A DNA stretch of 64,000 bases, taken from the NCBI RefSeq assembly GCF_013315695.1, contig NZ_CP054353.1. One strand, written 5' to 3'. This stretch comes from Escherichia coli (GTDB lineage Bacteria > Pseudomonadota > Gammaproteobacteria > Enterobacterales > Enterobacteriaceae). Positions 8,190 through 10,190 of the stretch are shown in pieces (position 1 is the first letter of the stretch; every line of letters starts with the position of its first letter). The notes beneath the pieces are model-generated. The model ran no database searches and was not told the DNA's origin. It saw nothing but the letters and a program-made list of their open reading frames with translations. The position numbers were made by a program, and so were the translations under genes.

Positions 8190-8724
8190 ACAGGTTTGTG
8201 AGGCTCTGGATGCCTGGGTATGTCGACCAGGAATGACACAGGAGCAAGCGACGATATTAATCACGGAAGCATTCTGGGCTCTGAAAGAACGCCCGAACAT
8301 CGATGTTCAACGCGTCACGTTTAATGATGGCGAGGTTGATCAACGGGCGCTGGGCGTTAACCGAGTGAAGATATTCGAACGCTGGAAAGCTATCGACACC
8401 AGGGATAAGCGGAAAAAATTCACGGCGCTGATTCCGGCAATTATGGAGGCTATCCGAATTAGTGATTTCAGGTTGTATCGTGAGATCAGTGATGGAAAAA
8501 GCATTACGTACATGATCGCCGGATTAAACAAAGAATATGGCGATGTGGTGGAGTCCGGGCTGCTTTTTGCGGATCCAGCTGTTGTGGAACGTGAGACTGA
8601 CGAGCTTATAGAAAAAGCTATTGCTTTCAAGCATGCGTATCGTCAGCAATATCAATATTACTTTGCAGATAAACAAATGTCTGCCAGGGGTTTGTATGAG
8701 TATCGATGCACTACGATGGGCTAA
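8173..8724 (+). CDS. Hypothetical early protein, 183 aa (CII/YdaT position)
   Basis: Intact ORF overlapping the dicC stop; no family recognised with confidence. Confidence 0.55.
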   Translation: MKITPEQVCEALDAWVCRPGMTQEQATILITEAFWALKERPNIDVQRVTFNDGEVDQRALGVNRVKIFERWKAIDTRDKRKKFTALIPAIMEAIRISDFRLYREISDGKSITYMIAGLNKEYGDVVESGLLFADPAVVERETDELIEKAIAFKHAYRQQYQYYFADKQMSARGLYEYRCTTMG

Positions 8725-9736
8725 AAAGGTGAAAACCGGCAGTTCATCCAGTAAGTCTGTATTGACCTGGCTTGCTGATATGTGCGGTGCCGATTTGTGT
8801 GCATACCCGTCTGTATCTGCACTGGCAGAAGTAACGGAACTAAACAAAAAGACTGTGCAGGACAGCTTACGACACCTGATGGAGATTGGGTTAATTGTTG
8901 ATACCGGTGAGAGAAAAGGCAGAACAAAGCAAATTGTGGTGTACCGACTTATCGGTGTAGAAGAAAGTGTTGCCGAGCCTGAATACACCCAAAAACGGGA
9001 GTCTTTAAAGGTGGGTAAAATTGGTGCTGTTAATAAAAACAGTACCGAAAATGGTTATGTTTCAGCACAAAACAGACCCAAAAACGGAACTCTTAGCTGC
9101 ATGGAAAATAACCAAAGACACCCAAATTTTCCATCAAAGACACCCAAAAACGGATCACGGAACCCAAAGGAACCCAAAGATCTAAACCCCACACATAACG
9201 CACGCGAGAGTGCTCCGACCAGTGAGCAGGAAGTTTTGTCGTTACAGGCAGCACCCCTTGTATTCCTGGATGGCCTGAGCGAACCCATCGGAAAATTTCC
9301 GATGACCGATAGCTGGTATCCGTCACGGGATTTTCGACGACGGGCTGCGTTGTGGGGGATGGCTTTGCCGGAGACAGAATTTACACCTGCTGAACTTGCC
9401 GCCTTCCGGGACTACTGGGCAGCGGAGGGGAAAGTGTTTACGCAGATTCAGTGGGAGCAGAAATTCGCCCGTCACGTAAATCACGTCAGGGCGCAGGTTA
9501 AACCAGTCAGCAAGGGGGTAAACCATGCAGCAGCACCAGGTGGCACCGCATCACGGGCAGTTCAGGAAATTCGGGCAGCACGTGAGCAGTGGGAACGTGA
9601 AAACGGATTTATCAGCGACGGAAACGGTCTGGAAGCTGTGGGAACTCATGGGGGAGGTTTATTCGAACCGCTGGACCCAGAAGAACGGGGCCGCACCTTC
9701 GAAGCTCTGGATTGCACAGATTGGCGCGATGACTGA
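8696..9736 (+). CDS. Replication initiator, O-like, with winged-helix N-terminus and DnaT-like C-terminal domain
   Basis: [68 protein letters not shown]...; C-terminal ...[43 protein letters not shown] resembles DnaT C-terminus; RBS AGGGG. Confidence 0.7.
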   Translation: [346 protein letters not shown]

Positions 9737-10190
9737 GCAGCAAATCCGACAGGTCTGCCGCCAGTGCATGGACCGCTGCCGGGCGGGTGAAACATGGCCT
9801 CCGGACCTGGCTGAGTTTGTGGCGCTGATTTCAGAAAGCGGGGCCAATCCATTTGGCCTGACGGTGGATGCTGTGATGGAGGAGTACCGCCGCTGGCGTG
9901 ATGAGTCCTGGCGATATGACGGAAGCGACAAATATCCGTGGCCTCAGCCTGTGCTGTACCACATCTGCCTCGAAATGCGTACCAGAGGGATTGAGCGCCA
10001 GATGACGCAGGGTGAGTTAAAACGACTTGCGGAACGGCAACTGACGAAATGGGCAAAGCATGTTGGTAACGGGATGAGTGTTCCGCCAGTGCGACGACAA
10101 CTGGAAGGGGCGAAACACCCGCAAGGGCCAACGCCAATTGAACGGCTGAAACAGGAATACGAACGCCGGAAGGCAGCTGGTTTTATTTGA
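9525..10190 (+). CDS. Replication protein P-like, 221 aa; start uncertain
   Basis: Strong RBS AAGGGGG before the 9525 ATG; region ...YPWPQPVLYHICLEMRTRGIERQMTQGELKRLAERQ... resembles the lambda P N-terminal domain; overlaps the O-like ORF by 211 nt in another frame. Confidence 0.6.
   Translation: MQQHQVAPHHGQFRKFGQHVSSGNVKTDLSATETVWKLWELMGEVYSNRWTQKNGAAPSKLWIAQIGAMTEQQIRQVCRQCMDRCRAGETWPPDLAEFVALISESGANPFGLTVDAVMEEYRRWRDESWRYDGSDKYPWPQPVLYHICLEMRTRGIERQMTQGELKRLAERQLTKWAKHVGNGMSVPPVRRQLEGAKHPQGPTPIERLKQEYERRKAAGFI

What the first reader, a model, noticed from the sequence alone, without database searches (positions are those of the whole stretch)
8696..10190. Replication initiator with DnaT-like C-terminus and a 211-nt two-frame overlap with the P-like gene
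The O-position protein combines an N-terminal winged-helix with a C-terminal segment resembling primosomal protein DnaT (...[43 protein letters not shown]...). The next ORF (P-like) has a strong RBS and ATG at 9525, but the O-like frame stays open to 9736. Either there is an unusually long gene overlap or one boundary is wrong.
Basis: partly seen in the sequence, partly recalled or inferred. Interest (0 to 1): 0.3.

Follow-up and report, generated by a model that had tools for sequence, protein, structure and literature searches.

The report
Conserved 212-base overlap of replication genes
In this E. coli prophage the replication initiator gene and the helicase-loader gene share 212 bases read in two frames. 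The overlap is conserved from enterobacterial prophages to Vibrio phages, and current reference annotation hides it by cutting 68 residues off the loader.

Summary
The O-like ORF is 8696-9736 (346 aa). The P-frame ORF opens with a Shine-Dalgarno (SD) sequence plus ATG at 9525 and ends at 10190 (221 aa). The overlap is 212 nt, not 211, and P is in the +1 frame relative to O.

O carries a DnaT C-terminal ssDNA-binding domain (aa 194-270), followed by a 76-aa tail. P is a lambda-P homologue.

The long overlap is real rather than a boundary error:
- 146 of 151 distinct relatives keep it, including Vibrio phages at about 30% identity.
- The SD+ATG at the long start is conserved in 147 of 149. The RefSeq start (9729) is not even ATG in 33 of 149.
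- P residues 29-68 are conserved. AlphaFold2 places them in the folded domain that matches lambda-P domain II.
- E. coli polymorphisms follow the O frame up to about 9615 and the P frame after that.
- Each protein's constrained helix lies over the other's disordered segment.

The O tail travels with P behind at least four different initiator bodies, so it is probably the P-docking element. That step is inference.

This is a known lambda-type O/P replication module with an apparently undescribed, conserved long overlap, and an annotation error present in many genomes. Interest is moderate.

The parts
8696..9736 (+). O-like replication initiator gene (346 aa), annotated in RefSeq as 'DnaT-like ssDNA-binding domain-containing protein' (WP_000020541.1)
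   Evidence: ORF. Identical boundaries in NZ_CP029579. PHROG 1032 'replication initiation protein' E=1.7e-90. The exact 346-aa sequence is on about 1000 contigs.
8801..8896 (+). Putative winged helix-turn-helix of the initiator (aa 36-67), presumed to bind the iterons
   Evidence: Pfam HTH_36 E=3.3e-4, 20.8 bits, below the cutoff of 25. Relatives L096, L118, L004 and L097 score above cutoff.
8986..9178 (+). Iteron-like repeats inside the O linker, the putative origin. CACCCAAAAACGG occurs at 8986, 9075 (1 mismatch) and 9141, with shorter CAAAGACACCCAAA / GGAACCCAAA copies at 9113-9178. An A-rich, strand-skewed stretch follows at about 9080-9200.
   Evidence: these are the only copies in the 64-kb window at 2 mismatches or fewer. 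AT skew up to 0.75 and GC 37-47%.
9275..9505 (+). DnaT C-terminal-type ssDNA-binding domain of O (aa 194-270)
   Evidence: Pfam PF17948 E=6.5e-17. NCBIfam NF002770 positions 82-166 of 179. PDB 6aep, 4ou6, 9zbt and 2ru8 at E 1e-16 to 1e-19.
9512..9527 (+). Shine-Dalgarno (AAGGGGGT) and ATG start of the P gene, lying inside the O reading frame
   Evidence: An SD match of 4 nt or more sits upstream of the equivalent ATG in 147 of 149 distinct relatives, usually as GGAGGT.
9525..9736 (+). Dual-coding overlap (212 nt): O aa 277-346 and P aa 1-71, with P in the +1 frame
   Evidence: Conserved in 146 of 151 distinct relatives. Variable sites per nt are halved here: 0.175 against 0.355 (O-only) and 0.275 (P-only). 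Changes non-synonymous in both frames are depleted (Fisher p=3e-6 and 3e-10).
9554..9601 (+). Conserved O-tail helix (aa 287-302, [16 protein letters not shown]), encoded over the disordered N-terminus of P
   Evidence: Conservation is 0.5-0.94 in the O frame against 0.15-0.6 in the P frame. AF2 helix pLDDT is 79-95 in the fusion and 68-80 alone. Polymorphisms are O-frame-like at 4/1/13 by O codon position. O-frame constraint p=2e-5.
9602..9733 (+). Distal O tail (aa 303-346): Gly/Asp-rich, predicted disordered, ending in an acidic/aromatic tip (LDCTDWRDD)
   Evidence: pLDDT below 42. Weak amino-acid conservation. The O frame is nonetheless kept open: 0.05-0.25 chance per lineage, summed log10 = -10.6 over 12 lineages.
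9525..10190 (+). P-like helicase loader gene, full length 221 aa. RefSeq annotates only 9729-10190 (153 aa, WP_000139457.1).
   Evidence: Pfam PF06992 59.3 bits. PHROG 109 covers aa 19-221. PDB lambda-P 8v9t aligns aa 72-193 with lambda-P 83-202. Foldseek to lambda-P chains 9oa1 has probability 1.0 over 192-216 columns. The 221-, 180- and 153-aa forms are all deposited.
9609..9728 (+). First three helices of the folded P domain (aa 29-68, matching lambda-P domain II), which the RefSeq start at 9729 would delete
   Evidence: AF2 helices at aa 29-46, 48-54 and 60-67 have pLDDT 88-95. W39, K53, N54, G55 and W62 are invariant in 34 representatives. Polymorphisms are P-frame-like at 16/0/3 by O codon position. 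P-frame constraint p=1.5e-9.

Best explanation
This is the lambda-type replication module of a Rac/PPompW-like E. coli prophage. Two genes share 212 nt in two reading frames.

O (8696-9736) has four parts: an N-terminal wHTH, a linker whose DNA carries the iterons (the putative origin), a DnaT-type ssDNA-binding domain, and a 76-aa tail.

P (9525-10190) is a full-length lambda-P-type DnaB loader. It starts at its own SD+ATG inside the O frame. Ribosomes on O read through that start site and terminate 209 nt later.

The overlap is partitioned. In the proximal third the O tail forms a conserved helix (aa 287-302), while P encodes a variable, disordered N-terminal leader matching lambda-P domain I. 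In the distal two-thirds P encodes the first three helices of its folded domain II, while O encodes a loosely constrained Gly/Asp-rich acidic tail.

Shown here: both frames are open, and both are under purifying selection segment by segment. The start signals are conserved. P is homologous to lambda-P in sequence and in predicted fold. The overlap is retained from enterobacterial prophages to Vibrio phages.

Inferred: the O tail is the element that recruits P-DnaB to the origin-bound initiator, by analogy with the lambda O C-terminus binding P. Encoding the tail inside the P gene would keep the docking element and its cognate loader together when recombination swaps initiator bodies.
For: **Architecture.**

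**Family assignments.**

**Conservation of the overlap.**
- tblastn of the 221-aa ORF aligns residues 1-132 in Vibrio phages at about 30% identity, across their annotated O-like/next-gene boundary.
- 146 of 151 distinct relatives have an overlap of at least 180 nt (180-263 nt for most; nominally 344-362 nt for five loci where an extra SD-less upstream ATG was taken as the start). The O stop is at the identical position in 119.

**Start site.**
- SD of 4 nt or more at the M1 ATG in 147 of 149.
- No SD at the M42 ATG (2 of 149).
- The M69 codon is not ATG in 33 of 149.
- P residues 35-41 upstream of M42 are conserved (W39 100%) where the O frame is not.
- The AF2 fold begins at P aa 29.
- Lambda-P domain II begins at about aa 30-41 (PMC12661323).

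**Selection.**
- Variable sites by O codon position among 37 close relatives: 34/28/62 in O-only, 4/1/13 in 9525-9615, 16/0/3 in 9616-9736, and 89/25/11 in P-only.
- Changes non-synonymous in both frames are depleted. O constraint is p=2e-5 proximally and P constraint is p=1.5e-9 distally.

**Open frames.** The O frame is open given the P protein in 0.7-13% of resamplings per lineage.

**Cassette behaviour.** The same tail+P unit follows HTH_36+DnaT, DnaT-only, HTH_36-only, DUF6291 and DUF1376 initiator bodies.

**Contrast.** Other P-family phages (HK225/phi80-type, Tyrion and phiV10-type, PdC23) have the usual 4-nt overlap or a small gap.
Against: - There is no direct evidence of translation from 9525. 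No ribosome profiling or peptides were available.
- P residues 1-28 are only weakly constrained (p=0.04), so the exact start rests on SD/ATG conservation.
- Amino-acid constraint on the distal O tail is not significant among close relatives (p=0.09). Much of its terminal motif (LD..DW.DD and the TGA stop) is dictated by conserved P codons (WI..QIG.MTE). One lineage (L095) ends O about 100 nt earlier. The distal tail may therefore be partly a passenger.
- The O-tail to P docking role is untested. The AF2 fusion raised helix pLDDT only modestly (79-95 against 68-80 alone), and no contact map was available.
- The lineages used in the resampling tests are not fully independent.
Confidence: 0.8

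Rival explanations
1. The RefSeq/PGAP boundary is right. P starts at ATG 9729 (153 aa) with an 8-nt ATGACTGA overlap, and the open P frame upstream is chance.
For: PGAP annotates 9729-10190 in the 100%-identical genome and Rac-SA53 is annotated likewise. The 153-aa form is on about 1000 contigs. Given the O protein, the P frame stays open by chance in 8-60% of resamplings.
Against: The codon at this position is TTG, CTG, CTA or TTA in 33 of 149 relatives, and an SD of 4 nt or more is present in only 6 of 149. P-frame residues 35-67 upstream are the most conserved part of the region and evolve with a P-frame codon pattern. They form three confident helices of the fold and align with lambda-P domain II, Pfam profile position 27 onward and PHROG 109 position 22 onward.
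Confidence: 0.04
2. P starts at ATG 9648 (M42; 180 aa), giving an 89-nt overlap. This could be the only start or a second isoform alongside the 221-aa form.
For: The ATG is conserved in 146 of 149 relatives. PGAP-181-aa proteins in Salmonella, Citrobacter, Klebsiella, Enterobacter, Pectobacterium and Brenneria. phrog_33198 begins there.
Against: An SD of 4 nt or more is found in only 2 of 149. Residues just upstream (A35, W36, L38, W39, E40) are conserved in the P frame while the O frame there is not. The switch to P-frame-like substitution occurs at about 9616, before 9648. The AF2 helix spans aa 29-46, so M42 is an internal helix residue.
Confidence: 0.12
3. The two frames are joined by programmed +1 ribosomal frameshifting, or P is made mainly as an O-P fusion, rather than by independent initiation.
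For: phrog_15931 (482 positions) matches both O 161-345 and P 3-221. Fused proteins exist in databases, for example P0119 (298 aa, DnaT+P domains, 44 member sequences).
Against: P is in the +1 frame, so a -1 slip cannot reach it. A conserved SD+ATG sits at the P start. The fusions seen join the frames at different places and carry further frame disruptions or deletions (P0103, P0084), consistent with indels or pseudogenes. No significant RNA structure surrounds the P start (z=0.48). No systematic search for +1 shift sites was done.
Confidence: 0.03
4. The overlap is real, but the O tail is a non-functional read-through passenger. The overlap would persist only because the P start moved upstream and no stop has arisen in the O frame.
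For: The distal O tail is predicted disordered and weakly conserved. Its terminal motif is dictated by P codons. L095 lacks it. O-frame constraint in the distal part is not significant (p=0.09).
Against: The proximal O helix is conserved from E. coli to Vibrio phages while the P frame there is not. Its polymorphisms are O-frame-like (p=2e-5). The distal O frame stays open in 12 of 13 lineages despite a 5-25% chance each.
Confidence: 0.15

Closest known systems
Bacteriophage lambda O/P replication module
   Same: Same gene order: initiator, then DnaB loader. Iteron-like repeats and an A-rich stretch lie inside the initiator gene. P belongs to Pfam PF06992, and its AF2 model matches lambda-P chains from the DnaB-lambda-P complex 9oa1/8v9t. 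Both loaders have a disordered N-terminal segment followed by compact helical domains (PMC12661323).
   Different: Lambda O and P overlap by only 4 nt (from memory; the phi80-type HK225 record shows the 4-nt pattern). Here the overlap is 212 nt. The C-terminal half of this O is a DnaT-type ssDNA-binding domain plus a tail, not the lambda O C-domain. No Phage_rep_O hit was found at E<=0.1.
E. coli primosomal protein DnaT
   Same: O residues 194-270 align with DnaT 82-157, the three-helix ssDNA-binding domain solved in 4ou6/4ou7, 6aep, 2ru8 and 9zbt.
   Different: O has no DnaT N-terminal domain. The NCBIfam equivalog score is 94 against a cutoff of 201. O carries a wHTH and a 76-aa tail unrelated to DnaT's short C-terminus. 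It is a domain homologue, not a DnaT orthologue.
DopC/DopE (domesticated lambda O/P-like pair; Brezellec et al. 2017, PMC5509034)
   Same: DopC is described as HTH_36 plus the DnaT C-terminal motif, and DopE as a P (PF06992) protein. This is the same two-protein architecture.
   Different: DopCE are chromosomal, domesticated genes for which the authors found no iterons. The paper does not mention any gene overlap (0 occurrences of 'overlap'). Whether dopC and dopE overlap was not tested here.
phiV10 / Tyrion-type 'primosomal protein + replication protein P' pairs
   Same: A DnaT-domain protein is followed by a P homologue that aligns with residues 18-221 of this P. The DnaT-like protein also ends in an acidic/aromatic tip (PEAWEDFL).
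   Different: The genes abut with a 4-nt overlap. The P N-terminus is encoded on its own DNA. There is no SRAVQQIRAAR-type tail helix.
Rz/Rz1 spanin genes of lambdoid phages (from memory, not tested here)
   Same: Two interacting proteins are encoded in different frames of the same DNA. Across phages the family shows both separated and overlapped architectures.
   Different: Rz1 is fully embedded in Rz, and interaction of the two products is experimentally established. Here the overlap is partial (tail over head) and the interaction of the overlapping segments is only inferred.

Membership tests
Lambda P helicase-loader family (Pfam PF06992) | Sequence match above the curated Pfam gathering score | tested here: met
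   59.3 bits against a cutoff of 26, aa 55-188 against profile 27-161 of 162. PHROG 109 'P-like helicase loader' E=2e-63, aa 19-221.
Lambda P helicase-loader family (Pfam PF06992) | Fold like lambda-P as seen bound to DnaB | tested here: met
   The AF2 model (P part pLDDT 88-95) gave lambda-P chains 9oa1_Y/Z/V as best Foldseek hits, probability 1.0, 192-216 aligned columns. Domain III 8v9s matched at rmsd 1.2 over 73 columns. Global rmsd is high, as expected for flexibly linked domains.
Lambda P helicase-loader family (Pfam PF06992) | Binds and loads the host DnaB helicase | not testable with these tools
   Biochemical property.
DnaT primosomal protein (NCBIfam NF002770 equivalog) | C-terminal three-helix ssDNA-binding domain | tested here: met
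   PF17948 E=6.5e-17. PDB DnaT chains at E 1e-16 to 1e-19.
DnaT primosomal protein (NCBIfam NF002770 equivalog) | Full-length match above the equivalog cutoff, including the N-terminal domain | tested here: not met
   94.1 bits against a cutoff of 201. Only profile positions 82-166 of 179 are matched.
Lambda-type (O-like) origin-binding initiator | N-terminal winged-helix DNA-binding domain | tested here: inconclusive
   HTH_36 scores 20.8 bits against a cutoff of 25 in this copy. Relatives L004, L096, L097 and L118 score above cutoff. PHROG 1032 'replication initiation protein' E=1.7e-90 over aa 1-298.
Lambda-type (O-like) origin-binding initiator | Iterons and an AT-rich region inside its own coding sequence | tested here: met
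   Three copies of CACCCAAAAACGG (0-1 mismatch) lie at 8986-9153, with no other copy in the window at 2 mismatches or fewer. Shorter repeats reach 9178. The stretch 9080-9200 is A-rich and skewed. Binding was not tested.
Lambda-type (O-like) origin-binding initiator | Membership of the lambda O sequence family (Phage_rep_O) | tested here: not met
   No such Pfam hit at E<=0.1. Only weak PHROG 'O-like' matches, E 1e-8 to 1e-12.
Bona fide long same-strand overlapping gene pair | Both frames open and the arrangement conserved across divergent relatives | tested here: met
   146 of 151 distinct relatives, down to about 30% P identity. Resampling tests.
Bona fide long same-strand overlapping gene pair | Purifying selection on both frames within the overlap | tested here: met
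   Across the whole overlap, NN versus SN p=3e-6 (O frame) and NN versus NS p=3e-10 (P frame). The signal is segmental: O proximal p=2e-5 and P distal p=1.5e-9, but P proximal p=0.04 and O distal p=0.09.
Bona fide long same-strand overlapping gene pair | Independent translation of the downstream gene from the internal start | not testable with these tools
   Only in-silico support: SD+ATG conserved in 147 of 149. No ribosome profiling or proteomics was available.

The most novel reading that the evidence does not exclude
The 212 nt may encode, in two frames, both sides of the initiator-loader docking interface: the O tail helix and acidic tip in one frame, and the P N-terminal leader and first helices of domain II in the other. 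The specificity pair could then not be separated by recombination. That would explain why one tail+P cassette is found behind at least four unrelated initiator bodies, from E. coli prophages to Vibrio phages. It would be a same-strand, partial-overlap analogue of the Rz/Rz1 principle, applied to replication-module shuffling.
Probability: 0.3. Interest if true: 0.65.

Novelty: new variant of a known kind. Interest (0 to 1): 0.42.

Why it matters
**Annotation.** The current RefSeq protein 'replication protein P' (153 aa) for this widespread prophage module lacks 68 N-terminal residues, including three helices of the folded domain. A match to the module occurs in 1292 of 5426 complete E. coli genomes. 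Three different lengths of the same protein circulate in databases. In four of the five public assemblies examined where the 212-223-aa long form of P is called, the initiator gene is not called at all. Structural, proteomic or functional work that starts from the short form would use a truncated protein.

**Biology.** Conserved out-of-frame overlaps of about 200 nt with selection visible in both frames are rare in bacteria and phages, and gene callers routinely suppress them (context: PMC9927249, PMC7103648). This case has deep conservation and a clear structural logic: each ordered segment lies over the other protein's disordered one. It is a clean model for how overlaps are tolerated.

**Evolution.** If the O tail is the P-docking element, the overlap shows how mosaic phages keep interacting replication proteins matched while exchanging origin-binding domains.

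Tried and rejected
- **SD-sequestering hairpin.** I looked for an RNA hairpin that would couple P initiation to O translation. Folding 9470-9570 is no better than shuffles (z=0.48), so I dropped it.
- **Programmed frameshift or O-P fusion.** I considered this because phrog_15931 and a few database proteins span both genes. The fusions are heterogeneous and look like indels or deletions. P is in the +1 frame and has its own conserved SD+ATG. I did not systematically scan for +1 shift sites.
- **AF2 of a linker fusion** (O tail + GGGGSx5 + P, with an alignment paired by locus), meant to test O-tail/P contact. The tool returns no coordinates or PAE. The helix pLDDT rose from 68-80 alone to 79-95 in the fusion, which is suggestive but not decisive.
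- **Searches that failed or under-delivered.**
  - The search for related loci with a five-sequence alignment failed on genome contigs.
  - The four-sequence alignment returned only 6 loci.
  - The Vibrio D75 P protein found nothing in IMG/VR.
- **Pooled diversity across all 212-nt-overlap sequences** was saturated and uninformative (first part). The close-relative set was used instead.
- **Literature.** Five successful searches plus one rejected query found no description of this overlap. Absence from the held library does not prove it is undescribed.
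Full report
**What is in the sequence**

- The window region is 100% identical to a prophage in E. coli DA33137 and about 95% identical to 'PPompW' and Stx2a-associated prophages. Matches occur in 1292 of 5426 complete E. coli genomes.
- The O-position ORF runs from ATG 8696 to TGA 9734-9736 (346 aa).
- A second ORF in the +1 frame is open from ATG 9525 to 10190 (221 aa). It has in-frame ATGs at 9648, 9729 and 9768.
- AAGGGGGT at 9512-9519 precedes the 9525 ATG by 5 nt.
- The shared stretch 9525-9736 is 212 nt.
- Neighbouring genes are typical of a Rac-like lambdoid early-right operon: a DicA-like repressor, Cro/DicC, YdaT, then O, P, DUF1627 and DUF977.

**Family assignments**

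O protein:
- It has a DnaT C-terminal ssDNA-binding domain at aa 194-270. Support comes from Pfam PF17948 (E=6.5e-17), NCBIfam DnaT profile positions 82-166 of 179, and PDB DnaT chains 6aep, 4ou6, 9zbt and 2ru8 (E 1e-16 to 1e-19).
- It is not a DnaT orthologue. The equivalog score is 94 against a cutoff of 201, and there is no DnaT N-terminal domain.
- The N-terminus gives only a sub-threshold HTH_36 hit. Relatives score above threshold, and PHROG 1032 'replication initiation protein' matches at E=1.7e-90.
- Between the two domains the DNA carries three copies of CACCCAAAAACGG (8986, 9075, 9141), shorter related repeats up to 9178, and an A-rich skewed stretch. This resembles a lambda-like origin inside the initiator gene.

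P protein:
- It is a lambda-P homologue (PF06992, 59.3 bits; PHROG 109, E=2e-63).
- Residues 72-193 align with lambda-P residues 83-202 (8v9t).
- A protein starting at 9525 therefore has about the same length ahead of that block (71 residues) as lambda-P has (82).

**Where the databases disagree**

- PGAP annotates P from 9729 (153 aa, 8-nt overlap).
- Rac-SA53 does the same under the names ydaU/ydaV.
- The PPompW records start P at 9768.
- Other depositors and genera use the equivalents of 9648 (180-181 aa) or 9525 (220-223 aa).
- For this exact sequence the 221-, 180- and 153-aa forms are each on about 1000 contigs.
- In four of the five assemblies examined where the 212-223-aa long form of P is called, no O gene is called in the roughly 900-nt gap upstream. 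This reflects the overlap penalty of gene callers.

**The long overlap is conserved**

- tblastn of the 221-aa ORF against phage genomes aligns residues 1-132 in many Vibrio phages at about 30% identity. The match straddles their annotated O-like gene and the next gene.
- In Vibrio phage D75 the O-like ORF ends at locus position 1712 and the P-frame ORF starts with ATG at 1501. That is again exactly 212 nt. In phage 199E37-1 the overlap is 194 nt.
- I collected 259 loci from IMG/VR, species-representative genomes and public assemblies.
- They hold 151 distinct P proteins with core identity from about 28% to 100%. Of these, 146 have the same architecture with an overlap of at least 180 nt (180-263 nt for most; five loci score 344-362 nt because an extra SD-less ATG lies further upstream).
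- The frame relationship is the same in 149, and the O stop is at the identical position in 119.
- By contrast, phi80/HK225-type, phiV10/Tyrion-type and PdC23 P genes abut their initiator genes with 4-nt overlaps or a small gap. The long overlap therefore marks one clade of the family.

**Which start is used**

| Start | ATG conserved | SD of 4 nt or more |
|---|---|---|
| 9525 (M1) | chosen as the reference start | 147 of 149, usually GGAGGT, 6-9 nt upstream |
| 9648 (M42) | 146 of 149 | 2 of 149 |
| 9729 (M69, PGAP) | 116 of 149 (rest TTG/CTG/CTA/TTA) | 6 of 149 |

Further points:
- In 34 representatives (under 90% identity), P residues 35-67 are highly conserved. W39, K53, N54, G55 and W62 are invariant. 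O-frame residues over the same DNA are not.
- AlphaFold2, run on a locus-paired alignment, puts the first confident P helix at aa 29-46, followed by helices at 48-54 and 60-67 (pLDDT 88-95). Residues 1-25 are disordered.
- The model's best PDB matches are lambda-P chains in the DnaB complex, aligned over 192-216 columns.
- In lambda-P, domain I (1-29) is a disordered N-terminal 'lasso' and compact domain II begins at about residue 30-41 (PMC12661323).
- A start at 9729 would delete three helices of domain II. A start at 9648 would begin inside the first helix.

**Selection in the two frames**

Variable sites by O codon position (1/2/3) among 37 distinct close relatives (88-100% identity):

| Region | Counts | Pattern |
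|---|---|---|
| O-only 9176-9524 | 34/28/62 | O-frame-like |
| Overlap 9525-9615 | 4/1/13 | still O-frame-like |
| Overlap 9616-9736 | 16/0/3 | P-frame-like (O position 1 is P position 3) |
| P-only region | 89/25/11 | P-frame-like |

- Variable sites per nt fall to 0.175 in the overlap, against 0.355 (O-only) and 0.275 (P-only) on the flanks.
- I classified possible single-base changes as NN (non-synonymous in both frames), SN (synonymous in O only) or NS (synonymous in P only).
- NN changes are strongly depleted. Across the whole overlap, NN versus SN gives p=3e-6 and NN versus NS gives p=3e-10.
- Proximal part: O constraint p=2e-5, P constraint p=0.04.
- Distal part: P constraint p=1.5e-9, O constraint p=0.09.
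- The conserved O element is [19 protein letters not shown] (aa 283-301). It is recognisable even in Vibrio phages and predicted helical at aa 287-302.

**Open frames versus chance**

- With the P protein fixed and its codons resampled, the O frame remains open across the overlap in 0.7-13% of trials per lineage. The summed log10 is -19.2 over 13 lineages.
- For the distal part alone the figure is 5-25% per lineage, with summed log10 of -10.6 over 12 lineages.
- The reverse test (P open given O) is weaker, at 8-60%. The case for P therefore rests on homology, structure, start signals and substitution pattern rather than on openness.
- The lineages are not fully independent, so the summed values overstate significance.

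**How the overlap is organised**

- Each protein's constrained segment lies over the other's unconstrained, predicted-disordered segment.
- The O helix lies over the P leader. P domain II helices lie over the Gly/Asp-rich O tail.
- Much of the O terminal motif (LD..DW.DD and the TGA) is dictated by conserved P codons (WI..QIG.MTE).
- One lineage (L095) ends O about 100 nt earlier. The very end of O may therefore be partly a passenger, even though its frame is usually kept open.

**Cassette behaviour and inferred function**

- The initiator bodies upstream of the shared tail differ: HTH_36+DnaT (this window, L096, L118), DnaT only detected, HTH_36 without DnaT (Vibrio D75, L097), DUF6291 (Vibrio 199E37-1), DUF1376 (L095) and DUF1376-like+DnaT (Rac-SA53).
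- The only part common to all of them is the tail that is physically inside the P gene.
- In lambda, the C-terminal part of O recruits P-DnaB (established knowledge, from memory).
- The most economical inference is that the tail helix, perhaps with the acidic tip, is the docking element for its cognate P. The overlap would then keep the pair together during module shuffling.
- This step is inferred. The AF2 fusion gave only a modest rise in helix confidence.

**What is known and what is new**

- The HTH_36 + DnaT-C / P-like two-protein architecture has been described for the domesticated DopC/DopE pair (PMC5509034). PGAP already names both products.
- None of the papers found mentions the overlap.
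- I therefore file this as a known lambda-type O/P module with a new architectural variant: a deeply conserved, roughly 210-nt, two-frame overlap. There is also a practical correction to the RefSeq start of P.

**Verdict**

- Observation: confirmed.
- Confidence that P starts at 9525 and that both frames are functional: about 0.8.
- Interest: moderate (0.42).

Noticed in passing
window 8986-9178 (and A-rich 9080-9200): Iteron-like direct repeats lie inside the O linker: CACCCAAAAACGG x3, plus CAAAGACACCCAAA and GGAACCCAAA copies. A strongly A-skewed stretch follows. This is the probable prophage origin. In the O frame the repeats encode a repetitive 'PKNG/TPK' low-complexity linker.
   Followed up: partly
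window 8173-8724 / 8696: The YdaT-family ORF (183 aa; Pfam YdaT_toxin E=2e-5) overlaps the O start by 29 nt (8696-8724). The early-right operon is thus tightly packed, with a second, shorter out-of-frame overlap.
   Followed up: no
proteins P0119, P0103, P0084; phrog_15931: Public databases hold proteins that join the DnaT-like domain and the P domain in one frame. P0119 is 298 aa with 44 member sequences. P0084 is a deletion fusion. The 482-position phrog_15931 spans both genes. These are probably indel or pseudogene derivatives, but a natural fusion lineage is not excluded.
   Followed up: partly
loci L094, L096, L097, L098: In public assemblies where the long P is called, no gene is called for the 330-390-codon O-like ORF upstream. 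An apparent 800-900-nt 'intergenic' gap is left. This is a gene-caller artefact caused by the overlap.
   Followed up: partly
L092 (Vibrio sinaloensis DSM 21326, 560-bp contig NZ_AEVT01000091.1): A tiny contig in a Vibrio assembly encodes a P fragment 74-78% identical to the E. coli-type protein. That is far closer than the Vibrio phage homologues at about 30%. Possible contamination or recent transfer.
   Followed up: no
PP818812.1 Actinobacillus phage vB_Apl-pPE4 (hit H13): A phage recorded for Actinobacillus pleuropneumoniae carries the tail+P region at 89% nucleotide identity to this E. coli prophage. That is unexpectedly high for a Pasteurellaceae host.
   Followed up: no
window 10206-10994: The gene after P is a DUF1627 protein (Pfam E=1e-98) with N-terminal HTH-like matches. 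It is consistently linked to this O/P module in E. coli and has no known function.
   Followed up: no
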